Shown here piece after piece: positions 1 to 17,566 of a stretch of 17,566 nt of DNA. Source of the stretch: a virus (Duplodnaviria > Heunggongvirae > Uroviricota > Caudoviricetes); the IMG/VR virus record IMGVR_UViG_3300029071_000015. One strand, written 5' to 3'. Position 1 is the first letter of the stretch, and each line of letters starts with the position of its first letter. The notes under the pieces are model-generated. The model ran no database searches. It was not told the origin of the DNA and saw only the letters and a program-made list of their open reading frames with translations. A program made the translations under genes and the position numbers.

Positions 1-987
1 ATGAACGCAATAATATCGCCCGATTATTACTATGTTCTTACCGTTGCCGGTCAGTCTAATGCTATGGCGTATGGCGAAGGACTCCCGTTACCAGACAGTG
101 AAGATGCGCCTCATCCCAGAATAAAACAACTGGCGAGATTCACTCAGACGCATCCCGGTGGCCCGTTATGTCAATTTAATGACATTATTCCACTGACTCA
201 CTGCCCACACGATGTCCAGGATATGCAGGGTTATCACCATCCTCTGGCAACGAATCATCAAACACAGTACGGCACCGTTGGCCAGGCACTACATATTGCG
301 CGGAAATTACTGCCCTTCATTCCTGATAATGCAGGCGTTCTTATCGTTCCCTGTTGCCGTGGTGGATCGGCTTTTACCACGGGCAGCGAAGGGACATATT
401 CAGAACAGCACGGAGCCAGCCATGATTCATGTCGTTGGGGAGCGGATACTCCGCTGTATCAGGATTTAGTCAACAGAACACGAACGGCACTGTCAAAGAA
501 TCCGCAGAATAAATTCCTCGGCGTATGCTGGATGCAGGGCGAATTTGACTTAATGACCAGTGACTACGCGTTACATCCTCAATACTTTAATCATATGGTT
601 GAAGCCTTTCGTGAGGATTTGAAACAGTATCGTTCTCAGCTTAATAATATTGCTGCCGCTCCGTGGTTTTGCGGCGATACCACCTGGTACTGGAAAGAAA
701 ATTACCCTCATTCGTATGAAACGATTTATGGCAATTATAAAAATAATGCCTTAGCCAATATTATTTTCGTCGGCTTCCAGCAACAAGGTGAAAGAGGGCT
801 GACGAACGAGCCAGATGAAGATCCGGACGATTTTATCACGGGATATTACGGTTCAGCGTACCGAACACCAGAAAACTGGACGACGGTGCTACGCAGCAGT
901 CATTTCAGCTCAGCAGCCCGTCGGGGGATTATTTCTGACAAATTTGTTGAAGCTATTTTACGGTATTGGTGCGATATGTGGCTTTAA
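1..987 (+). CDS. nanS: N-acetyl-9-O-acetylneuraminate esterase (SGNH/sialate O-acetylesterase family), NanS/YjhS-like
   Basis: 328-aa ORF starting at window position 1; N-terminal GQSN motif typical of SGNH hydrolases; N-terminus MNAIISPDYYYVLTVAGQSNAMAYGEG matches my recollection of E. coli YjhS/NanS. Not verified by search. Confidence 0.75.
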   Translation: MNAIISPDYYYVLTVAGQSNAMAYGEGLPLPDSEDAPHPRIKQLARFTQTHPGGPLCQFNDIIPLTHCPHDVQDMQGYHHPLATNHQTQYGTVGQALHIARKLLPFIPDNAGVLIVPCCRGGSAFTTGSEGTYSEQHGASHDSCRWGADTPLYQDLVNRTRTALSKNPQNKFLGVCWMQGEFDLMTSDYALHPQYFNHMVEAFREDLKQYRSQLNNIAAAPWFCGDTTWYWKENYPHSYETIYGNYKNNALANIIFVGFQQQGERGLTNEPDEDPDDFITGYYGSAYRTPENWTTVLRSSHFSSAARRGIISDKFVEAILRYWCDMWL

Positions 988-3603: not shown

Positions 3604-4167
3604 TTAAGCATCCGCTTCAAATCCTCCAAGATCGATTTGCTCTTCGATTTCAGGAGTCCAAAGTAATTCTTCTGGCGTAGCGTTTGACCAAAGCAATTTA
3701 CCATTCTCGATAACATACTTAACCGGTATTTTAGGATTGTTTATGTCTTTACCATCTCTTTCATGCCATTGTCTCTCCCATTTATCATAGAAGACTTCCA
3801 AATCACCGGGCATGAGTAAATAAACTGAACGGATAGTGATATTACTATAAATTGCGAACACCCATGGAACCTGCCTATATTTCGCAATTATTGTTGGATT
3901 CATATGATGGTGAGTTGAAAAACTTTTAGTTAACTCAACATTAACTGATTTTAATTCAAACTCAGTACCAGTGACATCTACTGCATCATTACCTTCTCGC
4001 CCAGGAAGAACTTTAAGACTGAGAAGTAAAAGAACTTGCAGGAGTTTCCCTCCGTTATCTTGGAATATATCATTGATTCCGTGCTTATTAGCTAACCGTT
4101 GATATTCTTCAACCTGAGGCCAAAGCGCAATTAAATTTGACCAATCTTGATGCAACTCAAATTTCAT
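3604..4167 (-). CDS. Type II restriction endonuclease, PvuII-like (PD-(D/E)xK)
   Basis: 187-aa ORF; segments [51 protein letters not shown] and DKWER match my recollection of R.PvuII, including the catalytic D...E-x-K; ATGA overlap with the upstream C gene; divergent from the methyltransferase. Confidence 0.75.
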
Positions 4168-4400
4168 ACCTGATTATTCTCCAACAGGGAACTGGGAGAG
4201 ACGCCAAGGGCTGAAGCAATTCGGTCGATATTATCAATGGAAATATTTCTTTCACATCGCTCTACTGATCCGATGTAAGTTCTATGCAAGCCTGCTAAGT
4301 CAGCCAAGGCTTCTTGAGACAACCCTTGTCTCTCCCTTAACTTTCTGATGTTATGGGCAAAAATCACTCTTGCTCTTGAGGGGTTTATCTTTCGTTCCAT
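4164..4400 (-). CDS. Controller (C) protein of restriction-modification system, XRE-family HTH
   Basis: 78-aa ORF with a helix-turn-helix region ([41 protein letters not shown]) resembling C.PvuII-type controller proteins; sits immediately upstream of and overlaps the endonuclease gene. Confidence 0.8.
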
Positions 4401-4427
4401 TCGCGAGACAATGCAGCCTTGATGACA

Positions 4428-4452
4428 ATAGATCTACAGACTATGAGTAGCA
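4428..4452. promoter_or_regulatory. Putative C-box operator in the divergent M/C-R intergenic region
   Basis: The 55-bp intergenic region contains dyad-symmetric elements (tagatcta; actatgagt, i.e. ACT-N3-AGT) just upstream of the C gene start, where C-protein operators normally lie. Confidence 0.4.
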
Positions 4453-4455
4453 GTT

Positions 4456-5430
4456 ATGACATTTGACAATAAAAAACCTGCGTACAAAACAGATTTGGGT
4501 GCAATGTACATTGCTGACTCGCTTGAAATGCTTAAATCGATGCCAGACAACAGCTTAAATTTAGTGATGACAAGCCCACCTTTCGCATTACAGCGTAAGA
4601 AAGAATATGGTAATCACGATCAAGAACAGTACATCGATTGGTTTTTAAAATTCGGCGAGCTGATTTTTAAAAAGCTAAAAGATGATGGTAGCTTTGTCGT
4701 CGATTTTGGTGGTGCTTACATGAAAGGAGTGCCTGTTAGAAGTGTCTACAACTTCCGGGTTTTGATCAGGATGATTGATGAGGTTGGGTTCCATCTGGCT
4801 GAGGACTTCTATTGGTTTAACCCTTCAAAACTACCAAGTCCTATTGAGTGGGTTAACAAAAGAAAGCTGCGTGTTAAAGATTCTGTTAACACAATTTGGT
4901 GGTTTAGCAAAACCGAATGGCCAAAGTCAGATATAACTAAAGTTCTTGTTCCCTATAGTGATAGGATGAAAAAACTTATTGAAGACCCTAATAAATATTA
5001 TTCCCCCAAAATGCGTCCATCAGGGCATGATATAAGCAGCAGCTTTGGCAAAGATAATGGCGGTGCTATACCTCCAAATTTATTGCAAATTCCCAACTCC
5101 GAATCTAACGGTGGATATTTATCGAGTTGTAAAAAAATTGGCGTTAAGGGGCATCCAGCACGATTCCCATCTAAATTGCCGGAGTTTTTCATTACAATGT
5201 TAACAGAGCCGGGTGATCTTGTTGTAGATATTTTTGGCGGTTCAAATACAACTGGAAGTGTTGCTGAACGATTAAAACGCAAATGGCTTTCATTTGAAAT
5301 ATTACCTGAATATGTAGCCGCATCTGTATTTAGATTTACAGATAAAAATACAAGTCAAGATATACTTCAAGAGATGTATGACACTATATTAAATGGAAAT
5401 ACTCTCGATTTATGCGCCAAAGAGAAATAA
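4456..5430 (+). CDS. DNA methyltransferase, beta-class amino-MTase (likely N4-cytosine, M.PvuII-like)
   Basis: 324-aa ORF; motif IV TSPPF near the N-terminus and motif I FGGSNTTG near the C-terminus (the circularly permuted order typical of beta-class N4C/N6A MTases); divergently arranged to the C-R genes. Confidence 0.8.
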   Translation: MTFDNKKPAYKTDLGAMYIADSLEMLKSMPDNSLNLVMTSPPFALQRKKEYGNHDQEQYIDWFLKFGELIFKKLKDDGSFVVDFGGAYMKGVPVRSVYNFRVLIRMIDEVGFHLAEDFYWFNPSKLPSPIEWVNKRKLRVKDSVNTIWWFSKTEWPKSDITKVLVPYSDRMKKLIEDPNKYYSPKMRPSGHDISSSFGKDNGGAIPPNLLQIPNSESNGGYLSSCKKIGVKGHPARFPSKLPEFFITMLTEPGDLVVDIFGGSNTTGSVAERLKRKWLSFEILPEYVAASVFRFTDKNTSQDILQEMYDTILNGNTLDLCAKEK

Positions 5431-5505
5431 GGTCAAATCGTAGTTAGCTAATTCGTAAAGAAAGCCAGTCATAGAGTCAGATTGGCTTTCTATCAGCATA
5501 AATAA

Positions 5506-6764
5506 TTAAGCATGAAGTTTTGCGTAGTCAAATGGACTAATAGGTTTAATCTTGTTTGCATCAAGATAATCAGCCCACCATTGAACCATTAATCGCCTTT
5601 CATCCAAATGTTCAGGGGTATGAATATAAGCTGCCCTAACACTATTACGCTCAGAATGACTCAACTGACGTTCTATCGCGTCATCACTCCATAGCCCCGA
5701 CTCCCCCAACGCACCACGTGCCATATTCCTAAAACCATGACCACAGACTTCCGTTTTTGTGTTATATCCCATCGCACGCAATGCATTGTTTACCGTATTT
5801 TCACTCATAACCTTAGCTGCGTCATGATCTCCCGGGAAAAGAAGCTCTTTATCACCACTAATCTGCTCAAGCTGTACTAACAACATCATCGCCTGCTGGC
5901 TAAGTGGAACTATATGCTCCTCTTTCATTTTCATGCCGCGATACGAGTAACGCACACCTTTAATTTCTTCACGTTTTGCCGGAATACGCCAAATAGCGTT
6001 ATCAAAATCAAATTCTTTCCAACGAGCAAAACGCAATTCGCTTGAACGAACAAAAGTTAGTAAAGAAAGCTCAACCGCAATTTTCGTCATCATACGACCA
6101 CGATATGCAGCAAGACGCGCCAAGAACTCAGGGAAACGATGTGAGGGTAGCGCCGGATAGTGCCGCATTTTAGATGTCGATAACGCTCCAGCCATATCAC
6201 TTGCAGGATTCGAGTCTATATAATCGTTCTGTACGGCATAGCGCATAATAGTAGTGACACGTTGCTGAAGACGCTGCGCTACATCATGCTTACCACTGGC
6301 ATCAACTTTTTTATCGGAGCTAGAAGATGACTAGTTTTAAGCTGTCGGATATCAGACGAGCCAATATAAGGGAAGATATAAAGCTCTAGATAGCGAAGAA
6401 CGCGCCCCCGATGATCCTCGCTCCAACGTTTGTTGCTGGCATGCCATTCACGGGTAATAGTTTCAAAATTATAAGTACCAGCATTCTCTGCTTGGGCCTC
6501 TTTTCGTACTGCTTTTGGATCTATGCCGTGTGCCAGCAACTTTTTCGCTTCATCCCTTCTCGTTCTAGCTTCAGCAAGCGTCACGGTCGGCCAAACACCA
6601 AAAGCAAGACGATCCTCTTTTTTGTCGGAGGGGCGTCTGTATTTCATACGCCAATATTTAGAGCCTTTGATAGAAACCTCAAGATACAAACCGCCACCAT
6701 CAGCCATTTTGTAGGTTTTGTCTTTTAGCTTTGCGGTCTCGACTTGTCTGGCGTTGAGCTTCAT
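5506..6764 (-). pseudogene. int: P4-family tyrosine integrase, frameshifted (split into 6279..6764 and 5506..6246 ORFs)
   Basis: The two ORFs together align along the intact integrase at 16301..17566 (roughly 85-90% identity); the nucleotide alignment shows a 1-bp deletion near 6270..6290 (ttttttatcgg versus ttttttaatcgg in the intact copy) that breaks the frame. Confidence 0.8.
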
Positions 6765-7461: not shown

Positions 7462-9795
7462 TTATGCCTCTGCGGGGTCGTCGCACTTCGGCAGCCAGTC
7501 GCCGTAGCTTTCCTCTTTCAGCGACAGGTTAGTCTGTATCCCCTGCTTTGTGTGCCGCTTCTCATAATTCAGGCCGTACTCTTTCAGCATCATGGGCAGC
7601 CCCAGCCCGAACATTTTCAGGCTGAGTACGTTCCTGTACCCGTTAGCCTCCATATAGGCCAGATACGCGTGATAGAGATATTTACGGTAATTACGCGGGA
7701 TGATGCTGGCATTCCCCATAAACATCCCGTTGGTCTGCGGGAGCATTTCCAGATAGCCGCAAAAATCAAACGTCGGGTCAGCATCGCGCTTGATGCTGAG
7801 CGCCTCGTCGGAGTTCTGCTGCGACTGGAGCAGTGCGCGCGCTGCCATCGGGTCGCTGAATTTCTGCATAAGCTGGCGCACAATCACGGCCAGCTCACGC
7901 GCAATTTTATCCCTGAGCTGCGGGTCGCGTTCCTCCGGCGCAATCTGCTCCGGGAAGTGGATAATCACCCGGCGGCGCGACACACCGCCGCTGCGGTCGG
8001 TGAAGCGCATGGGGTTATTGTTCACGGCCAGAATCACCGCCGGAATATGTGTTGAGTATGGGTTCTGGTATTTCGGGTCAACTGAGACCGCATCGCCGCC
8101 GGTGATGGCCTTAAGTCCTGCGCCGTCACCGCTCCATTTTTCCTGGTCTGGCAGACGGATTAGCGAGAAGCCAATCAGGGAGGCACGCTTGCGCGGGTCT
8201 TCCAGTGTGTCGATATCGGCCGACGTGGCGTTATCTTCCCCGGCGAGCAGGGTCGCGATTTCGGCCAGAATACTTTTGCCGCTCCCGCCGGGGCCGGTGA
8301 CTTCGAGAAAGAGCTGCCAGTCGTAGCGGTTCGCCAGTACCATAAACAGCGCGGCCAGAATCACGTCGCGTTTTTGTGGATTTTTGCCGGCCGCACGGTC
8401 GAGCCAGCGCCAGAAGTTCGGCGAGTGAGTCTCCAGCGTTTCCCCGTCCACCGGTGGGGTGAAATCCACGTCGCACAGCGTGCGCAGCCAGTGTGATTTA
8501 CTGTGCGGGCTGAACAGGCCGCTCTGGGTATCGAGTACCCCGTTGCGAAAGCCAATCAGACGACGCGCCGGTGTATCCTGCTGCGGAATAATCAGTTTCA
8601 GGGTCTCCACCACCGAGGCAATTTTCCCCGATGAGAACGGGGCGCGCAGACGCTGGAATAAGTCAGCCACATTCCGTGAAAAAGTGGCGGCAGGGATATT
8701 TTTCCAGATGCCGTTTTCATAGCGGGACAGGAGCTGGCCGTTTGCATCCACCGCCAGCGCTTCGCCGTAATGCTCATGCACCCGCAAGGCCTTGTCGCTG
8801 GCGCTCATGGCGGTAAATTCCGCCTCGCTCATGGTATCAAACGGGCTTTGCGCCGGTGGCCGGATAGCGTCATAAATGGCTTTGCGTGTCGCATCCTCAC
8901 CATTCTGCATAAACGCATCATTCCAGTCACCGAACACCGGCGGCAGGGCGACAATGCCCTCACAGGCTTCTGCGGCCGCGGCGGCTTTACTCTGGCCGTC
9001 GCCGTTAAGGTCACGGTCGGCGGCGAGCACAATCTGACAGGCCGGGTGTTTTTGTCGGGCAAGGCTCGCCAGAGAAAGGAGGTTCACGGAGGACAGCGCC
9101 ACCATGACGGTTTCGCCGGTCAGGTGATGCACGGTGAGCGCGGTCGCATAACCCTCCGCTATCCACAGGCGCTTTCCCGCCTGTTTTTTCCCTTCGATGA
9201 TGTGGCACGCTCCTTTTACCGCCCCGCCTTTCAGGGTGCGTTTGAGACCGTCAGAATTAATAAGCTGAACGTTAACCAGCGCCCCGGCATCGTCATACAG
9301 TGGGACAACCATATCACCGGCGCGGAACGTCACACCGCCGGTTTTGTGTGTGGCCGTCAGCATGACACACTCATGACCGGGGAATCCCTTGCGGGTGAGG
9401 TAGGCATTGCCGCTGGCCGGTCGGGTTTTCTCCATGAGCCTGACGGCCAGCGCGGCCGCCGCCTGGCGGTCAACCTCCGTTTCTGCTTCTGCGGCCGCAA
9501 TCACTTCCGGGGCAACCGGCGGCAGGTTGCCGGTCACGGCGTTCACCTTTTGAGCTGCCTCTGACGGATTTACACCGAACACCTTTTCAACCAGCTTAAG
9601 CCCGTCACCTGCGCCACACTGATTGCAAAACCACGTCCCGCGCCCTTCTTTATCATCAAAGCGGAAACGGTCAGAGCCGCCACACACCGGGCAGGACTGA
9701 TGGCGGTTTTTAATCACCTTCACACCCAGCGCAGGGAGAATGTGCGGCCAGTGGCCGCAGGCCTGTTTTACCGTTTCTGTTACGTTCATTTTCAT
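7462..9795 (-). CDS. P4 alpha-like primase-helicase (zinc-binding primase, P-loop NTPase)
   Basis: Long ORF; start chosen at MKMNVTETV with RBS gagggagaaaacaaccATG; N-terminal zinc-finger CPVCGGSDRF...FCNQCG; Walker A GPGGSGKS; size comparable to P4 alpha. Confidence 0.9.
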   Translation of the reverse strand: MKMNVTETVKQACGHWPHILPALGVKVIKNRHQSCPVCGGSDRFRFDDKEGRGTWFCNQCGAGDGLKLVEKVFGVNPSEAAQKVNAVTGNLPPVAPEVIAAAEAETEVDRQAAAALAVRLMEKTRPASGNAYLTRKGFPGHECVMLTATHKTGGVTFRAGDMVVPLYDDAGALVNVQLINSDGLKRTLKGGAVKGACHIIEGKKQAGKRLWIAEGYATALTVHHLTGETVMVALSSVNLLSLASLARQKHPACQIVLAADRDLNGDGQSKAAAAAEACEGIVALPPVFGDWNDAFMQNGEDATRKAIYDAIRPPAQSPFDTMSEAEFTAMSASDKALRVHEHYGEALAVDANGQLLSRYENGIWKNIPAATFSRNVADLFQRLRAPFSSGKIASVVETLKLIIPQQDTPARRLIGFRNGVLDTQSGLFSPHSKSHWLRTLCDVDFTPPVDGETLETHSPNFWRWLDRAAGKNPQKRDVILAALFMVLANRYDWQLFLEVTGPGGSGKSILAEIATLLAGEDNATSADIDTLEDPRKRASLIGFSLIRLPDQEKWSGDGAGLKAITGGDAVSVDPKYQNPYSTHIPAVILAVNNNPMRFTDRSGGVSRRRVIIHFPEQIAPEERDPQLRDKIARELAVIVRQLMQKFSDPMAARALLQSQQNSDEALSIKRDADPTFDFCGYLEMLPQTNGMFMGNASIIPRNYRKYLYHAYLAYMEANGYRNVLSLKMFGLGLPMMLKEYGLNYEKRHTKQGIQTNLSLKEESYGDWLPKCDDPAEA

Positions 9796-9809
9796 GGTTG
9801 TTTTCTCCC

Positions 9810-10130
9810 TCAGTGCAGTACCGGCGCGGTGATATGACGGGCGCAAAGCTCATCCATCACGGCCAGCCCGAGAAAGGACAGCGACGGCGCGGCTTTGAGT
9901 GGTCCGGCTTCCATTAAATCCTCCAGTAGTGCACAGGCAATCTGGCGGCCTTTTTCCTCGCCGTGCTGGCGCAGGTAGAAGCCCTCCAGTTCGGCGGCAA
10001 TAGTGCTTTCCAGCGCGTCGAGGGTGAGGTGTGGATGGCGGTGCTGACGTTCGCACAGGGTCAGCCATGCACAGGCCACGGCGCGACGATACAGCGCGGC
10101 GCGTAATACGGGCGGTAATGGCTTTTTCAT
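9810..10130 (-). CDS. Hypothetical protein, P4-family early-operon gene upstream of primase
   Basis: 106-aa ORF ending 14 nt upstream of the primase start; ATGA overlap with the preceding gene suggests an operon. Confidence 0.5.
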
Positions 10131-12704: not shown

Positions 12705-13271
12705 GTGACCACTGTGACATTGCAGCAGGCCTTTGAGGCCTGTCAGACGAACAAAAACACCTGGCTGAAACGTAAAGCCGAACTGGCCGACCTTGAACTT
12801 GAATACCGTGAACAGCTCCTTGCCGGTGACGAACAAATCCCGCGCAAAATGCAGGATTTGCGCGACAATATCGACGTGAAAAAATGGGAGATTAATCAGA
12901 CTGCCGGTCGCTATATCCGCTCACATGAGGAGGTGCAGCACATCAGCATTCGCAACCGGCTCAATGACTTTATGCAGCAGCACGGCGCGGAGCTGGCCGC
13001 CACGCTGGCACCTGAGCTGATGGGATATCACGAACAGCTTCCCGCAGTAAAACAGAGCGCCATGCAGCACTCGGTTGATTATCTGCGTGAAGCCCTGTCG
13101 GTGTGGCTGGCCGCCGGTGAAAAAATTAATTATTCCGTGCAGGACAGCGATATTTTAACGGCCATCGGATTCAGGCCTGATGCGGCTTCGCGGGATGATA
13201 GTCGCGAAAAATTCACCCCGGCACAGAACCTGATTTACACCCGCCGACGTGCAGAACTGGCCACACGGTAG
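12705..13271 (+). CDS. psu: Psu-like polarity suppression protein
   Basis: 188-aa ORF (GTG start with RBS caggagagagacacGTG) with conserved blocks AGRYIRSHE.VQHISI, RLNDFMQQHG, LAPELMGY, GEKINYS.QDSDILTAIGFRPD and DSREKFTPAQN matching my recollection of P4 Psu and the pseudogene copy at 2821..3393. Confidence 0.85.
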   Translation: MTTVTLQQAFEACQTNKNTWLKRKAELADLELEYREQLLAGDEQIPRKMQDLRDNIDVKKWEINQTAGRYIRSHEEVQHISIRNRLNDFMQQHGAELAATLAPELMGYHEQLPAVKQSAMQHSVDYLREALSVWLAAGEKINYSVQDSDILTAIGFRPDAASRDDSREKFTPAQNLIYTRRRAELATR

Positions 13272-13310
13272 CACGCGAAAAAATCCCCGAAAATTCCGCT
13301 ATTTTTCCTG

Positions 13311-13346
13311 AAAAAAGCCATGCATCCATAAGGTGCATGGTTTTGC
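13311..13346 (+). terminator. Putative intrinsic terminator after psu
   Basis: Hairpin gccatgca-tccataagg-tgcatgg followed by tttt. Confidence 0.4.
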
Positions 13347-13444
13347 ATGCAAATCCCCGTATTTTTTATCCCACGCAACACCAGTGCCGGTGCGGCCTGA
13401 GGCCGTTCATGCACCTGCATTAAAAGCGACCTCTTAAGCGGGCA

Positions 13445-13463
13445 GGCGTGGCGGGGAGAGCAT
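13445..13463. other. Variant cos-like site (16/19 match to the P2/P4 cohesive-end sequence)
   Basis: ggcgtggcggggagagcat versus canonical ggcgaggcggggaaagcac (present intact at 3558..3576); same position relative to psu and the upstream hairpin. Confidence 0.45.
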
Positions 13464-13588
13464 TGCGCGCTAAGCCGTGAGGATAATTATTATCCTACTC
13501 ATGACCTGTCTAATCGGAAAGAAGTGAAAATATTCATGTAACCCCTGAATATTTAACGTTAAACCGATCAAATTCTAGGGCGAAAATA

Positions 13589-13618
13589 TTGCCTGAGCTA
13601 AGTCAATGGGAGTATGCT
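13589..13618 (+). promoter_or_regulatory. Candidate sigma70 promoter for the cargo cassette
   Basis: TTGCCT-N18-TATGCT about 50 bp upstream of the cassette start codon at 13669; weak match, by eye only. Confidence 0.25.
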
Positions 13619-13668
13619 TAATTTTTGATCATGGTGCATATCCAAAGATAAGAAGCTAAGGAAAGAGC

Positions 13669-14748
13669 ATGAATGTAGGGCATCTCAATTTTTTCAAGGT
13701 TAATAAGTGCGGTTTATACAAGGTAAATGATGACAATACCTATGGTTTAGAACTAAGCGAAACATTTGACCTCATACAGGATTGGGTAGGAACTAAACCT
13801 CTTGCACTCACCATACCATGGGACCCAAAAGAAAAACCCAATAGATCAAAGTGTTATTGTAAAGACATCTACAAAGATGAAAATACTGGTGATTTTTTAA
13901 TCATGTTATGGAAATCTGATACTGATAGTACTGGTTCTTTATTAGGAGCGAGTGAAGACGGTGAAATCGGAAGTTCATCAGTGGTTAAATATACTAATAG
14001 CTACAGAGGGAAAAAAGTCATCTGGGGTCGCCCATGCTTTTATTGGGTTATACCTGAACTTGAAACTATAGTTTCTATTAAATTCGATCATTCTGTTTGT
14101 GACTCTGAACTATTTCAAGATTATGTACACTCATCTATTACTAATAGAGTTAAACATAGCAAAAGAGTTAAAAATAAAACCGAGAAAGGTTATATAAGAT
14201 TATCTAATACTGATGACGAAGATTTATATAAATACATGTACAGATTTGATATGAAGCTCCGAAGCTTAGAAACCACTCATGCTGAGTTAGGTAAATTGAT
14301 ATCAAAAATAACACATATTGTTCGCAGAGAAACCATTATTATAAATCCAAATGACGCACGAGCTGATTGGTTAAAGACTTTTAGCACTCTCGTTCCATTT
14401 GTGTCCGGAAAGAAAAACACCAGAACAAGACAGATTGAAATAAAAGCAGAAGCGAAGCCATCCTTGAAAGAAGTTCAAGAAATAATTGAAAAACATTCTG
14501 CTGAGGATAGAGAAAAACGTCTTTGGGATAATGTGGGATTTGCGACGGACAAGGGCATAACATGGGTGGATAAATATAGAATGCGTGATATTCTCAATGT
14601 CCCTTCCGAAGACTATTCGACATATACCGCTGCATATATCTACGAACACATATCACACAAAAGAAAAGAATTCATTTCCCCTATATTAAAAGAGCTAAAA
14701 GCATTAAAATCTCAATCAAGAATAAAGAAAGCATCTGGAGAGGATTGA
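13669..14748 (+). CDS. Hypothetical protein (cargo gene A, 359 aa, soluble, Lys-rich)
   Basis: Long ORF with RBS aaggaaagagcATG; AT-rich codon usage contrasting with the satellite backbone; no catalytic motif I can recognise; stop directly abuts the next start (TGAATG). Confidence 0.7.
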   Translation: MNVGHLNFFKVNKCGLYKVNDDNTYGLELSETFDLIQDWVGTKPLALTIPWDPKEKPNRSKCYCKDIYKDENTGDFLIMLWKSDTDSTGSLLGASEDGEIGSSSVVKYTNSYRGKKVIWGRPCFYWVIPELETIVSIKFDHSVCDSELFQDYVHSSITNRVKHSKRVKNKTEKGYIRLSNTDDEDLYKYMYRFDMKLRSLETTHAELGKLISKITHIVRRETIIINPNDARADWLKTFSTLVPFVSGKKNTRTRQIEIKAEAKPSLKEVQEIIEKHSAEDREKRLWDNVGFATDKGITWVDKYRMRDILNVPSEDYSTYTAAYIYEHISHKRKEFISPILKELKALKSQSRIKKASGED

Positions 14749-15285
14749 ATGTTAAAAGCTATAGTAGGCCTCGTCAAATACACATGGATATACATAGCAA
14801 TATTCATTATATCGCTATTGGTCATTTTACCATCCGATATTTACTATGTGTATAACGATTTTGCTAACTATTGCACTCTTCTCGTATCAGTTTCTGGAAT
14901 GGTTTTTACTATTATGGGGATTTGGTTAGCGTTTCTTTATCCAAATGCTTTGCAGCGTATTGTTAACCCCAAAACTATAGAAACTGTTGATTTCACCGAA
15001 CAACTGGAAGATACAAAAAGGTTAGAAGCAATAGTTGGAAGTGTTCTAAAATCATCTTTCGTTATGATTACTTTACTTGTTGTATATTTAGTTAAACTAG
15101 TATTTTTCAAGAGTCATCTTTATTTAGAGAGTCAAGAAGTAATAAAAGACATATCTTTAGCATTAATTATTGCCATTTCATACATGCAGATTGAGGCAGT
15201 GATTAGTGTAATACTAGCTAATGTTATGTTTATCAATGATTTACATAATAAGCGAGAGCAAAGAGACATCGACGATCAAGTATGA
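14749..15285 (+). CDS. Hypothetical integral membrane protein (cargo gene B, 178 aa, ~4 TM helices)
   Basis: Four hydrophobic segments (WIYIAIFIISLLVIL, LLVSVSGMVFTIMGIWLAFLY, FVMITLLVVYLVKLVFF, LALIIAISYMQIEAVISVILANVMFI); translationally coupled to gene A. Confidence 0.7.
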   Translation: MLKAIVGLVKYTWIYIAIFIISLLVILPSDIYYVYNDFANYCTLLVSVSGMVFTIMGIWLAFLYPNALQRIVNPKTIETVDFTEQLEDTKRLEAIVGSVLKSSFVMITLLVVYLVKLVFFKSHLYLESQEVIKDISLALIIAISYMQIEAVISVILANVMFINDLHNKREQRDIDDQV

Positions 15286-15292
15286 GGAAAAA

Positions 15293-16246
15293 ATGAAAAA
15301 AAACATACGAGTTATACCTAAAAACATTCATAACAAGTTAAAAAGGCTTGGCAATGCAGTTGTTGCTGGCACTTCCATCGCATTTACAGAAGACCAATTA
15401 AAAAATGGTATACTAGAGCACCTTGGAATATACTTTGATAATGGTGTTAATGCTTATGAGACGTCGGTTATACCCGATCCATTGCAAGGCAAATATTCAT
15501 TCAAAAATGTTTTCGGTGAAGAAATCGTAAGAAAAGACCTTCCAAAAGAAACTCATTACACTGAAATTGAGTCACCTAACTGGGGTGATAGTTCTAACGG
15601 TACGCATACTGTTAGATTACCTCACGAGAAATACCCCAGAGATATTATCCCACCAAGACTCATAGCAATTGAAATTAATCACAAACAGTCTTCGGACAGT
15701 CATTTCATATTTAATTTCAGAGTAACTAGAATTTTAGAAAAAAAATCAACCAAGTTTCATGATGAATTATTATTCGACTTAAATCTTCTTCAAGAAAATA
15801 TTGGGAAGTGTGGGATTGAGAATGCTGATAAACCTATATCGACTTATGCTGACACACTCATAGTATCATGGGACATATTTCCACCAGGTAGTAAAGAGGA
15901 AGTTTTAGCAAGAATCTTTAGAGGGAAAAATATCACTACAGATAAGAAAAGTGTTGCTGAAAACAGATATGACTTCTTTATGAGCCTTGATCCTAAAAAA
16001 ATTGTCACAGGTAATAGTACGTTCAGTAATTATATTGGAGCTATGCTAGAGGACGACCTGGTTGTTTTTGAAAATATAGAATATGGTAATGCAATATATA
16101 TCCTCTATGATAACTGGGATGAAATCAGCAAGCTATCTCGAATCGATTTGTTATCAGGAAGAGCAGGCAATAATTTCGATAGAATAATTCATAGTGGTAA
16201 TTGGAAAGACGAGGTGCGAAAAAAAGTTACTAATGGAAGATTATGA
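15293..16246 (+). CDS. Hypothetical protein (cargo gene C, 317 aa, soluble)
   Basis: Start placed at MKKNIRV with RBS tatgaggaaaaaATG, 7 nt after the gene B stop; the longer listed ORF (from 15221) would overlap gene B; followed by a strong terminator. Confidence 0.65.
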   Translation: MKKNIRVIPKNIHNKLKRLGNAVVAGTSIAFTEDQLKNGILEHLGIYFDNGVNAYETSVIPDPLQGKYSFKNVFGEEIVRKDLPKETHYTEIESPNWGDSSNGTHTVRLPHEKYPRDIIPPRLIAIEINHKQSSDSHFIFNFRVTRILEKKSTKFHDELLFDLNLLQENIGKCGIENADKPISTYADTLIVSWDIFPPGSKEEVLARIFRGKNITTDKKSVAENRYDFFMSLDPKKIVTGNSTFSNYIGAMLEDDLVVFENIEYGNAIYILYDNWDEISKLSRIDLLSGRAGNNFDRIIHSGNWKDEVRKKVTNGRL

Positions 16247-16263
16247 TTAAAGTGTTTAACACA

Positions 16264-16300
16264 AAATAAACGCCTATTTAAATTATAGGCGTTTATTTTG
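16264..16300. terminator. Bidirectional intrinsic terminator between cargo gene C and int
   Basis: Hairpin aaacgcctat-ttaaatt-ataggcgttt flanked by an A-run upstream and a T-run downstream; lies between convergent genes. Confidence 0.5.
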
Positions 16301-17566
16301 CTATTGTTTTTTGTTTATTTTAGCAAAATCATAAGGTGTAACTGTTTTGCTTTCATTTGCTTTGAGGTAATCAGCCCACCATTGCACCATCAAGCGACGC
16401 TCATCCAAATGCTCAGAGGTATGAATATACGCAGCACGTACATTATTTCTTTCCGAATGGCTCAACTGCCGTTCAATCGCGTCATCACTCCATAATCCTG
16501 ACTCACCCATAGCACCACGTGCCATCGTTCTGAATCCATGCCCGCAAACTTCAGTTTTCGTGTCATAGCCCATCGCACGCAGGGCGCTATTTACCGTGTT
16601 TTCACTCATAACCTTAGTTGCGTCATGATCCCCAGGAAACAGCAGCTCTTTATCACCACTAATTTGCTTGAGCTGCTCTAATAAAACCATCGCCTGCCGA
16701 CTGAGAGGAACGATATGCTCCTCTTTCATCTTCATGCCACGGTATGAGTAACGCACGCCTTTAATTTCTTCTCGCTTTGCCGGTATGCGCCAAAGAGATT
16801 TATCGAAGTCGAATTCATCCCAACGCGCGAAACGTAACTCACTGGAACGCACAAAAGTTAGTAAGGAAAGCTCGACAGCGATCCGTGTCATTACACGGCC
16901 ACGATAAGCAGCAAGCCGAGCAAGAAACTCAGGGAACCGGCTTGAGGGTAAAGCGGGGTAATGTCGCGCTTTGGTTGTCGATAGCGCACCGGCCATATCA
17001 CTGGCTGGATTTGATTCGATGTAATCGTTCTGTACGGCATAACGCATGATCGCCGTGACGCGCTGTTGCAAGCGCTGAGCGACGTCATGCTTTCCACTGG
17101 CATCAACTTTTTTAATCGGGGCTAACAGGTGGCTGGTTTTGAGCTGGCGAATGTCGGACGAACCGATATGAGGAAAAATATAAAGCTCAAGATATCGAAG
17201 AACGCGCGATCGATGGTCTTCACTCCATCGCTTGTTACAGGCATGCCATTCACGAGCAATGTTTTCGAAAGTATATGCCCCTGAATTCTCGGCTTGAGCT
17301 TCTTTCTGTTCGGCTTTTGGGTCAATGCCCTGCACTAACAGCTTTTTAGCTTCATCGCGCTTTGCTCTTGCCTGAGCAAGAGTCACTGTAGGCCAAACAC
17401 CAAAAGCAAGGCGATCCTCTTTTTTGTCTGAGGGGCGTCTGTATTTCATGCGCCAGTATTTAGAACCCTTGGCCGACACTTCAAGATACAACCCCCCGCC
17501 ATCGGCCATTTTGTAGGTTTTGTCTTTCGGCTTTGCGGTCTCGACCTGTCTGGCGTTGAGCTTCAT
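16301..17566 (-). CDS. int: P4-family tyrosine integrase (site-specific recombinase), intact
   Basis: 421-aa ORF; catalytic HxxR (HGFRTMARG) and C-terminal Tyr region (VRAAYIHTSEH); start codon is the last three bases of the window, so the promoter, att site and presumed tRNA lie beyond the window. Confidence 0.9.
   Translation of the reverse strand: MKLNARQVETAKPKDKTYKMADGGGLYLEVSAKGSKYWRMKYRRPSDKKEDRLAFGVWPTVTLAQARAKRDEAKKLLVQGIDPKAEQKEAQAENSGAYTFENIAREWHACNKRWSEDHRSRVLRYLELYIFPHIGSSDIRQLKTSHLLAPIKKVDASGKHDVAQRLQQRVTAIMRYAVQNDYIESNPASDMAGALSTTKARHYPALPSSRFPEFLARLAAYRGRVMTRIAVELSLLTFVRSSELRFARWDEFDFDKSLWRIPAKREEIKGVRYSYRGMKMKEEHIVPLSRQAMVLLEQLKQISGDKELLFPGDHDATKVMSENTVNSALRAMGYDTKTEVCGHGFRTMARGAMGESGLWSDDAIERQLSHSERNNVRAAYIHTSEHLDERRLMVQWWADYLKANESKTVTPYDFAKINKKQ

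What the first reader, a model, noticed from the sequence alone, without database searches (positions are those of the whole stretch)
13669..16246. Three-gene AT-rich cargo cassette of unknown function in the psu-to-int slot of an intact P4-like satellite
Seen in sequence: three tightly linked genes (359-aa soluble, 178-aa ~4-TM membrane, 317-aa soluble) with translational coupling (TGAATG abutment, then a 7-nt gap), one upstream promoter-like region, one strong terminator, and markedly AT-rich composition against a GC-rich backbone. None has a motif I can assign (no P-loop, PD-(D/E)xK, HNH, TIR, HEPN or cyclase signature). Established knowledge: in P4-like satellites the region between psu/cos and int is a variable hotspot that usually carries anti-phage systems; the decayed neighbour carries a restriction-modification system at the same slot. 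Inference: this is a candidate anti-phage or helper-interference system, possibly of a new type. A small-membrane-protein plus ~315-aa partner architecture (genes B and C) is reminiscent of two-gene systems such as Kiwa, but I cannot confirm homology from sequence alone.
Basis: partly seen in the sequence, partly recalled or inferred. Interest (0 to 1): 0.85.

Follow-up and report, generated by a model that had tools for sequence, protein, structure and literature searches.

The report
RexAB-like defence pair plus unknown third gene
The three genes are real and sit in the known anti-phage hotspot of a P4-like satellite, but they are not a new kind of system: the first two are an already catalogued, lambda RexAB-like candidate pair, and only the third gene, from a large unnamed family that travels on its own elsewhere, is truly uncharacterised.

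Summary
Three co-oriented genes, A 13669-14748, B 14749-15285 and C 15293-16246, lie between psu/cos and int of a P4-like satellite. They are AT-rich (GC 0.32-0.35 against 0.54-0.59), under purifying selection, and end at one strong terminator.

- A+B match PADLOC candidate PDC-M18 (A 1.5e-38, B 9.6e-16). This is "System #4 (RexA + 4TM)" of Rousset et al. 2022, whose table already lists a homologue of C as an "occasional" third protein.
- The functional pair is therefore A+B, not B+C. No Kiwa model matches.
- C belongs to a family of about 1,090 clusters with no Pfam, PADLOC, NCBIfam, PHROG or PDB match. In 59 loci elsewhere it never sits beside A or B. It sits beside CapH/CapP or LexA-like repressors, an unannotated 230-aa partner, and defence genes.

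Most likely this is a RexAB-type abortive-infection pair plus an independent add-on gene. Defence activity is unproven. A distant two-gene relative showed no robust protection on eight phages.

The parts
13400..13471 (.). Conserved cos-proximal P4 backbone sequence; left edge of the variable hotspot
   Evidence: About 90 further E. coli genomes match little more than the first 70-90 bases of window 13400-16400. The block GGCAGGCGTGGCGGGGAGAGCATTGCGCGC is conserved in all four cassette copies, and similarity drops after it.
13589..13618 (+). Candidate sigma-70 promoter of the operon: TTGCCT, 18-nt spacer, TATGCT
   Evidence: Both hexamers are invariant across four diverged cassettes. They match 8 of 12 consensus positions, which is below the scan threshold, so the scan did not report them. 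Inferred, not shown.
13669..14748 (+). Gene A, 359 aa, soluble: PDC-M18A, a RexA/RdgC-fold protein and the proposed DNA-binding sensor
14749..15285 (+). Gene B, 178 aa, four hydrophobic segments: PDC-M18B, the proposed RexB-like membrane effector
   Evidence: PADLOC PDC-M18B 9.6e-16. phrog_37654 4e-19. Four hydrophobic segments. 37% identical to System #4 protein 2. Always follows A in relatives. No sequence similarity to lambda RexB.
15293..16246 (+). Gene C, 317 aa, soluble: member of a large unannotated family; probably an independent add-on gene
   Evidence: No hit in Pfam, PADLOC, NCBIfam, PHROGs or PDB sequences. 1,090 clusters at 50% identity with E<=1e-3. AF2 model with pLDDT 85, with no convincing fold match. 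About 92% identical to the 'occasional' protein 3 of System #4. No A or B neighbour in any of the 59 loci examined elsewhere.
16262..16300 (+). Intrinsic terminator closing the operon, immediately before the stop of int
   Evidence: 16-pair stem with a 7-nt loop and a T-rich tail; the only terminator-like site in 13200-16400.
12705..13271 (+). psu, the left framework gene of the hotspot
   Evidence: Pfam Psu 3e-88.
16301..17566 (-). P4-type tyrosine integrase, the right framework gene of the hotspot
   Evidence: Pfam Arm-DNA-bind_3, Phage_int_M and Phage_integrase.

Best explanation
The cassette is a single cargo operon in the psu-int hotspot of a P4-like satellite. It is made of two separable modules.

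Module 1, genes A+B, is a RexAB-type two-gene system. It belongs to PADLOC candidate PDC-M18, which is Rousset System #4.
- A is a cytoplasmic protein with the RexA/RdgC fold.
- By analogy with lambda RexA and Pseudomonas putida RexApp, A would bind DNA as a dimer and sense a phage replication or recombination intermediate, or a phage protein.
- A would then switch on B, a small membrane protein with four predicted transmembrane segments.
- B would breach or depolarise the inner membrane and stop growth, so the infection aborts.

Module 2, gene C, is co-transcribed with A+B but comes from an independent, widespread and unannotated family. Elsewhere this family is a stand-alone cargo gene of prophages and defence islands. 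It is often placed under DNA-damage-responsive repressors (CapH/CapP or LexA/CI-like), or paired with a 230-aa protein. C is therefore most likely a second, independent defence-type gene that joined the A-B pair in the enterobacterial lineage, not a subunit of the A-B machine.

What is shown: family membership of A and B, the fold of A, the topology of B, the conserved A-B synteny, and the independence of C.

What is inferred: DNA sensing by A, membrane action by B, any anti-phage phenotype, and any activity of C.
For: Family membership:
- A and B hit PDC-M18A and PDC-M18B over their full length.
- They are homologous to Rousset System #4, whose authors noted weak RexA homology and four transmembrane segments in protein 2.

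Resemblance to RexAB:
- B has four hydrophobic segments spaced like those of RexB.
- In a Vibrio temperate phage, A-like (44% identical) and B-like (37% identical) genes directly follow the CI repressor on the same strand, next to Septu and a type IV restriction enzyme. This is the lambda cI-rexA-rexB layout.

C is separable:
- The closest A-B relatives, in Serratia and Yersinia satellites, lack C.
- None of 59 C-family loci has an A or B neighbour.
- Of those 59 loci, 14 have CapP (10 also CapH; capP 3.7e-60, capH 1e-18). 4 have an S24 LexA/CI-like repressor, 6 have DUF2188 and 9 have an integrase within 2.6 kb.
- Large neighbours include type III and type I restriction-modification genes, a GajB-like helicase and an HmaC-like ATPase.
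Against: - No sequence-level link to RexA or RexB. Pfam RexA is not hit by A or by any of 40 family members. hhalign against lambda RexA and RexB gives a probability below 1%.
- The only tested member of the family, pFR81 from E. coli IAI75 (28% and 37% identical to A and B), is listed among systems without robust activity on eight coliphages.
- The 2021 preprint's 'moderate protection against P1vir' by a RexAB analog was not retained in the published paper. It also may refer to another construct.
- The trio is a stable unit in Enterobacteriaceae. The 359/178/317 order, the TGAATG junction and the 6-8-nt B-C gap persist down to 75% identity of C. In E. coli complete genomes this A-B subtype is never seen without C (7 of 7 genomes). 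A functional tie between C and A-B is therefore not excluded.
- The sample of large neighbours tested for defence genes was hand-picked.
Confidence: 0.55

Rival explanations
1. This is a true three-component system. C is an integral part of the A-B machine in this lineage, for example an extra sensor, a regulator, or the real effector. It would not work, or would work differently, without A and B.
For: - The three genes form one operon with a 7-nt B-C gap and a single terminator.
- The same order and junctions are kept in copies where C has diverged to 75-84% identity, and the three genes diverge in the same rank order.
- In E. coli complete genomes, all 7 loci with this A-B subtype also carry C.
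Against: - None of 59 C-family loci outside this cassette has A or B nearby.
- The nearest A-B relatives (61-63% identical) and more distant ones lack C.
- Rousset et al. list C as only 'occasional' in System #4.
- Hotspot cassettes are exchanged whole between conserved flanks, so stable linkage is expected even without a functional tie (inference).
Confidence: 0.2
2. The cassette serves the satellite's own life cycle rather than defence of the cell. It might tune the lysogeny-lysis decision, or helper exploitation and interference, as lambda RexA biases the CI/Cro switch towards lytic growth independently of RexB.
For: - Lambda RexA acts on the bistable switch independently of RexB (PMC11077077).
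- The tested relative gave no robust defence.
- A-B pairs sit next to repressors in temperate phages.
Against: - A-B pairs also occur in chromosomal contexts with no visible satellite or phage genes nearby, in Flocculibacter and Pseudomonas tohonis.
- They occur in unrelated phages at different positions, for example between Q and the lysis genes in Providencia phage PSTCR3. This fits a portable cargo gene better than a regulator tied to one switch.
- The slot is a documented anti-phage hotspot.
Confidence: 0.1
3. C is not a defence gene. It would be a DNA-damage-response or repair factor, a toxin-type stabilisation gene, or an anti-defence gene of mobile elements, which happens to ride in this cassette.
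For: - CapH/CapP-like (IrrE/DdrO, ImmR/ImmA) and LexA-like regulators also control repair genes and mobile-element induction (10.1101/2022.04.27.489752).
- C has no recognisable nuclease, NADase or pore fold.
- Its weak fold neighbours are small binding modules such as TnsE-C, MotA-C, AcrIIA11 and immunity proteins.
Against: - C sits in a dedicated anti-phage hotspot and next to restriction-modification, GajB-like and HmaC-like genes elsewhere.
- DUF2188 neighbours have been linked to defence operons under CapH/CapP.
Confidence: 0.15
4. B+C form a Kiwa-like pair, a small membrane protein with a roughly 315-aa partner.
For: Only the sizes and the order of the genes resemble Kiwa.
Against: - No KwaA or KwaB model in PADLOC and no DUF4868 in Pfam is hit by B, by C, or by 58 diverse members of the C family.
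- B is the conserved partner of A, not of C.
Confidence: 0.01

Closest known systems
PADLOC candidate PDC-M18, which is 'System #4 (RexA + 4TM)' of the P4 hotspot (Rousset et al. 2022, PMC9122126; Domainator, PMC11754643)
   Same: - A and B match the PDC-M18A and PDC-M18B profiles over their full length.
- They occupy the same psu-int slot.
- The gene order is the same, a soluble protein of about 360 aa followed by a four-segment membrane protein of about 175 aa.
- The catalogue already records C as an occasional third gene, and records this very arrangement in E. coli.
   Different: - A is only 28% and B only 37% identical to the representative that was cloned and tested.
- This subtype always carries C in the enterobacterial copies examined.
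- PDC-M18 is a candidate with no validated phenotype.
Lambda RexA/RexB phage exclusion system, and the RexAB-type systems of P. putida prophage P1 and mycobacteriophages Sbash and CarolAnn
   Same: - Two-gene layout, a soluble protein followed by a small membrane protein with four hydrophobic segments.
- The predicted fold of A is closest to the RexA crystal structure, then to RdgC.
- Relatives sit directly downstream of a CI repressor in a temperate phage.
- It is carried by a mobile element as cargo.
   Different: - No detectable sequence similarity to RexA or RexB.
- A is 80 residues longer than RexA, and B is 34 residues longer than RexB.
- DNA binding, membrane action and phage exclusion are untested here.
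- A third gene is attached.
Immune operons regulated by CapH/CapP, including the 'DUF2188 + hypothetical protein' operons noted by Lau et al. (10.1101/2022.04.27.489752)
   Same: Relatives of C lie downstream of, and divergent from, capH-capP in 14 of 59 loci, sometimes with a DUF2188 gene in between. That is the layout described for CapH/CapP-controlled operons.
   Different: - The window has no capH, capP or LexA-like gene; here C is read from the cassette promoter.
- Whether the hypothetical proteins named by Lau et al. belong to the C family could not be checked.
Kiwa (KwaA/KwaB)
   Same: A small membrane protein sits next to a protein of about 315 aa, and Kiwa also occurs in P4 hotspots.
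   Different: No profile match of B to KwaA or of C to KwaB/DUF4868. Synteny pairs B with A.

Membership tests
PADLOC PDC-M18 | Protein matching the PDC-M18A profile | tested here: met
   A: PDLC04494 at 1.5e-38, residues 5-336 against profile positions 6-335 of 339.
PADLOC PDC-M18 | Adjacent protein matching the PDC-M18B profile | tested here: met
   B: PDLC04500 at 9.6e-16, residues 11-176 against profile positions 6-163 of 174. B starts at the stop codon of A.
Rousset System #4 of the P4 hotspot | Homology to the representative proteins 1 and 2, and location between psu and int | tested here: met
   BLASTP gives 28% identity at 2e-43 for A and 37% at 1e-28 for B. Psu and the integrase flank the cassette.
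Rousset System #4 of the P4 hotspot | The 'occasional' protein 3 | tested here: met
   Peptides of C are found in the Table S1B entry. The E. coli copy of that protein is 92% identical to C.
Rousset System #4 of the P4 hotspot | Anti-phage activity | not testable with these tools
   The two-gene relative pFR81 is listed in Table S2B among tested systems without robust activity on eight phages. The three-gene form was not among the cloned systems found in Tables S2A and S2B.
Lambda RexAB family | Sequence match to RexA (Pfam PF15969, or the lambda RexA sequence) | tested here: not met
   No RexA hit at E<=1 for A or for 40 family members. hhalign against lambda RexA gives probability 0.5%.
Lambda RexAB family | RexA/RdgC two-domain fold | tested here: met
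Lambda RexAB family | Small four-transmembrane partner encoded immediately downstream | tested here: met
   Four hydrophobic 19-residue windows in B, with a pattern like RexB. This is hydropathy only, not a topology predictor.
Lambda RexAB family | Sequence similarity of the membrane partner to RexB | tested here: not met
   hhalign of the B-family profile against lambda RexB gives probability 0.6%. No RexB Pfam hit.
Lambda RexAB family | Co-expression with the prophage repressor (cI-rexA-rexB layout) | tested here: inconclusive
   Met in a relative: Vibrio phage 10N.222.45.E8_PE002 has CI, then A-like, then B-like genes. It does not apply in the window, where the pair is satellite hotspot cargo.
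Lambda RexAB family | DNA binding by A, membrane depolarisation by B, and exclusion of phages | not testable with these tools
   Known for lambda and P. putida (PMC11077077, PMC12894663).
Kiwa | KwaA-like membrane protein and KwaB (DUF4868) | tested here: not met
   No Kiwa model in PADLOC and no DUF4868 in Pfam for B, for C, or for 58 members of the C family.
CapH/CapP-regulated immune operon (considered for gene C) | Divergent capH-capP pair upstream of the operon | tested here: not met
   Absent from the window. Present next to C homologues in 14 of 59 loci (capP 3.7e-60, capH 1e-18). This bears on the family, not on this locus.
HEPN (considered for 'c1', the 230-aa partner of C homologues) | Rx4-6H motif within a HEPN fold | tested here: inconclusive
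   RNxLTH is invariant in 8 sequences. Only 1 of 8 weakly hits HEPN_Cthe2314 (E 0.013), and there is no PDB match. No structure was predicted.

The most novel reading that the evidence does not exclude
Gene C would represent a new, very widespread single-protein immune family: about 320 aa, about 1,090 clusters at 50% identity, spanning Patescibacteria to Streptomyces. It has no known fold or domain. It is normally kept silent by DNA-damage-responsive repressors (CapH/CapP or LexA/CI-like), or works with a small protein carrying a HEPN-like motif. In this satellite it would have been captured behind a RexAB-type pair, giving a two-layer defence operon.
Probability: 0.35. Interest if true: 0.65.

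Novelty: new variant of a known kind. Interest (0 to 1): 0.42.

Why it matters
Only five RexAB-type systems have been described experimentally (PMC12894663). How RexA-like sensors are triggered has been an open question since Benzer's rII work.

PDC-M18 is a large proteobacterial branch with the same architecture. It is carried by P4-like satellites that are common in Klebsiella, E. coli, Shigella, Salmonella and Enterobacter. Its activity therefore bears on phage-therapy host range.

The more useful lead is gene C. It belongs to an unannotated family found across many phyla, and its neighbours point to immunity: CapH/CapP, LexA-like repressors, DUF2188 and restriction-modification genes. Current defence-finding profiles do not detect it.

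If both modules are active, the cassette would be a compact natural example of two unrelated defence layers under one promoter.

If nothing protects, that adds to the negative result already obtained for a relative. It would suggest that PDC-M18 needs specific triggers that standard phage panels lack.

Tried and rejected
Sequence-level tests of the RexAB link, all negative:
- Pfam, NCBIfam and PHROG scans of A, B and C gave no named family.
- hhalign of the A family against lambda RexA and of the B family against lambda RexB gave nothing.
- A profile search of PDB sequences with the A family gave nothing relevant.
- A Pfam scan of 40 A-family members found no RexA hit.
- The RexA link therefore rests on fold and architecture only.

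Attempts to identify C, all without a result:
- Foldseek against viral models found nothing with E<=0.001.
- A profile search against PDB sequences gave nothing.
- Pfam and PADLOC scans of 58 diverse members gave nothing.
- The AFDB library was not available, so annotated distant fold relatives could not be searched.

Other points:
- The Kiwa idea was rejected (see rival explanations).
- The small inverted repeats in the leader (13480-13496 and 13528-13554) are not conserved in the other cassette copies, so I dropped them as operator candidates.
- No tRNA gene lies in the window.
- I could not obtain the sequence of P. putida PP_5643, so I could not test whether it belongs to the PDC-M18A family.
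- A literature search by protein accession found nothing, and 'PDC-M18' appears in only one paper.
Full report
**1. What is there**

The window carries a P4-like satellite. Its landmarks are the primase-helicase alpha (7462-9846, minus strand), Psu (12705-13271, Pfam 3e-88) and a P4-type integrase (16301-17566, minus strand).

Between psu/cos and int lie three plus-strand genes:
- A, 13669-14748, 359 aa.
- B, 14749-15285, 178 aa. The TGA of A abuts the ATG of B.
- C, 15293-16246, 317 aa, after a 7-nt gap containing GAGGA.

A 16-pair terminator follows at 16262-16300.

The genes have GC 0.32-0.35, against 0.54-0.59 for psu and alpha. Against the E. coli copy of the cassette, dN/dS is 0.04 for A, 0.13 for B and 0.08 for C, so all three are real, constrained genes. 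B has four hydrophobic segments, and A and C have none.

The consensus scan found no promoter upstream of A. However, TTGCCT and TATGCT, 18 nt apart at 13589-13618, are invariant in four diverged copies of the cassette. This is a plausible weak promoter, but it is inferred.

**2. It is already catalogued**

PADLOC profiles recognise A as PDC-M18A (1.5e-38, full length) and B as PDC-M18B (9.6e-16). C hits nothing.

The only paper that mentions PDC-M18 is the Domainator paper. It labels one cluster of E. coli P4 hotspots (24 loci, 2 CDSs) as PDC-M18 and equates it with System #4 of Rousset et al. 2022.

Rousset's Table S1B describes System #4 as follows:
- 169 occurrences.
- Two hypothetical proteins, with four transmembrane segments in protein 2.
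- An 'occasional' protein 3.

That third protein is a close homologue of C. The E. coli three-gene arrangement WP_001100521 + WP_032149796 + WP_024191949 appears in their Table S1A. The first two accessions are those annotated in my E. coli locus L001.

The two-gene representative was cloned as pFR81, 'RexA + 4TM', from E. coli IAI75. It is listed in Table S2B, the tested systems that gave no robust protection against eight coliphages. The 2021 preprint had mentioned 'moderate protection against P1vir' by a distant RexAB analog. That statement was not kept in the published paper, and which construct it meant is unclear.

A is only 28% identical and B only 37% identical to that tested pair. The negative result therefore does not transfer directly.

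Seven of 5,426 complete E. coli genomes carry the whole cassette at 88-91% nucleotide identity, always beside the P4 integrase. The exact proteins cluster with sequences from Klebsiella, Shigella, Salmonella, Enterobacter and Serratia, all annotated 'hypothetical'.

**3. What A and B are**

Sequence methods do not link A to RexA. Pfam RexA is not hit by A or by any of 40 family members, and hhalign against lambda RexA gives a probability of 0.5%.

Structure does link them:
- An AlphaFold2 model built on 40 homologues has pLDDT 84 and pTM 0.80.
- This is the very set of fold relatives that the RexA structure paper reports.

B shows no sequence similarity to RexB, but it has the same four-segment hydropathy pattern.

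The A-B pair is the conserved unit. It occurs without C in:
- Serratia and Yersinia satellites, at 61-63% identity.
- Chromosomal loci of Flocculibacter and Pseudomonas tohonis.
- Providencia phage PSTCR3, between Q and the lysis genes.
- Vibrio phage 10N.222.45.E8_PE002. There the A-like and B-like genes directly follow the CI repressor on the same strand, next to Septu and a type IV restriction enzyme. That is the lambda cI-rexA-rexB arrangement.

**4. What C is**

C belongs to a large and uniform family. It has 559 hits in the 90%-identity collection and 1,090 clusters at 50% identity with E<=1e-3, nearly all about 320 aa long. Homologues about 50% identical occur in Patescibacteria and Thermodesulfobacteriota.

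A species-level genome scan returned 55 loci, from Planctomycetes, Acidobacteria, Bacteroidota, Cyanobacteria, Firmicutes, Actinobacteria, Chloroflexi and Alphaproteobacteria.

Nothing annotates the family:
- Pfam, PADLOC, NCBIfam, PHROGs and PDB sequence searches all fail, for C and for 58 diverse members.

I surveyed 59 loci by calling ORFs, clustering them, and searching with HMMs of the recurrent neighbours and of the A and B families. The results:
- No locus has an A-like or B-like neighbour.
- 14 have a CapP-type M78 peptidase upstream. It is mostly divergent, and 10 of the 14 also have CapH (PADLOC capP 3.7e-60, capH 1e-18).
- 12 have an unannotated 230-aa gene, 'c1', 0-8 nt upstream on the same strand.
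- 4 have a LexA/CI-like S24 repressor upstream.
- 6 have a DUF2188 gene adjacent.
- 9 have a tyrosine integrase within 2.6 kb.

In viral contigs, C homologues sit next to terminase genes and an integrase.

I also checked nine large neighbours from seven loci. Five matched defence profiles: a type III methyltransferase and restriction enzyme, a GajB/UvrD-like helicase, an HmaC-like ATPase and a type I restriction enzyme. This sample was hand-picked.

CapH/CapP are known DNA-damage-responsive regulators of immune operons, and they have been seen with 'DUF2188 + hypothetical protein' operons.

C is therefore an independent, mobile cargo gene with a defence-type neighbourhood. Its biochemical activity is unknown.

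**5. Is the trio one system or two?**

For one system:
- It is a single operon.
- The same 359/178/317 order and junctions persist in copies where C has fallen to 75-84% identity, and the three genes diverge in the same rank order.
- No E. coli genome has this A-B subtype without C.

For two modules:
- C is never found with A-B elsewhere.
- The nearest A-B relatives lack C.
- Rousset's catalogue calls C 'occasional'.
- Hotspot cassettes are swapped whole, so linkage alone is weak evidence of a functional tie (inference).

I favour two modules, at roughly 0.7 against 0.2.

**6. Mechanism proposed**

Shown: family, fold, topology and synteny.

Inferred by analogy with lambda Rex and RexABpp:
1. 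A dimer of A binds DNA and senses a phage replication or recombination intermediate, or a phage protein.
2. A then activates B.
3. B depolarises or permeabilises the inner membrane.
4. Growth stops and the infection aborts.

C would act separately. Here it is expressed from the cassette promoter, because none of the repressors that accompany its relatives is present in the window.

**7. Comparison and verdict**

The cassette is a member of PDC-M18, Rousset System #4. It works like a RexAB-type system by architecture and fold, but it fails the sequence tests for the RexA and RexB families. It is not Kiwa.

It is not a new type, and its catalogue entry already proposes the RexAB reading. What remains new is the uncharacterised C family and the stable fusion of C to a RexAB-type pair. 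Interest is moderate.

Noticed in passing
window 3604-6764: A PvuII-type restriction endonuclease (3604-4167, minus strand; Pfam 6.5e-62), a 78-aa ORF (4164-4400, minus strand) and an N4/N6 DNA methylase (4456-5430, plus strand). They lie beside a P4-type integrase split into two ORFs (5506-6246 and 6279-6764, minus strand).
   Followed up: partly
L039 5302-5988; L051 5307-5990; also L042, L044, L048, L052, L056, L060, L061, L064 and others: In 12 of 59 loci, C homologues are preceded at 0-8 nt on the same strand by an unannotated 230-aa protein ('c1'). It has an invariant R..RNxLTHRxAPGR block, which fits the HEPN Rx4H motif. Only 1 of 8 members weakly hits a HEPN Pfam model (E 0.013). This may be a two-gene system of its own.
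   Followed up: partly
L024 4462-5567; L059 4407-5910; also L022, L033, L057, L070, L072 and others: capP (PADLOC 3.7e-60) and capH (1e-18) lie divergently upstream of C homologues, sometimes with a DUF2188 gene directly in front of the C homologue (L032, L033). This resembles the 'DUF2188 + hypothetical protein' operons that Lau et al. reported under CapH/CapP control.
   Followed up: partly
L006 27-12041 (ENA k141_256353): Two paralogues of the C family lie 5 kb apart, one directly after a LexA/S24 gene. The stretch also has an AAA_15/AAA_21 ATPase, DUF2188 and pEK499_p136. A 524-aa protein there carries hits to LexA_DNA_bind, Peptidase_S24 and DNA_methylase, which is an unusual fusion.
   Followed up: no
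L076 2818-7170 (Vibrio phage 10N.222.45.E8_PE002): The CI repressor, an A-like gene and a B-like gene are followed by Septu PtuA/PtuB and a type IV restriction enzyme. This is a compact defence cluster in the immunity region of a 186/P2-like temperate phage.
   Followed up: partly
L001 13345-13355 (E. coli NZ_CP104117): In the E. coli copy, the ATG of gene B is ATA and the first usable start is a TTG one codon later. The TGAATG abutment seen in the window is therefore not universal. It is kept in L077 and L078.
   Followed up: yes
L001 16494-26764: In E. coli USDA-ARS-USMARC-50748, the P4-like satellite is followed directly by a second integrase, an AbiTii-domain gene, a capsid gene, HNH endonucleases and a DEAD-box helicase. 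This looks like another integrated element in tandem at the same site.
   Followed up: no
window 13480-13496 and 13528-13554: Two perfect small inverted repeats lie in the cassette leader: AGGATAAT-T-ATTATCCT, and AAATATTCA-N9-TGAATATTT. Neither is conserved in the three other cassette copies aligned, so they are probably not operators.
   Followed up: yes
window 1-987: An ORF that starts at the window's first base (so its true start may lie upstream) has a SASA (sialate O-acetylesterase-like) domain (Pfam 1.4e-12). It is unrelated to the satellite.
   Followed up: no
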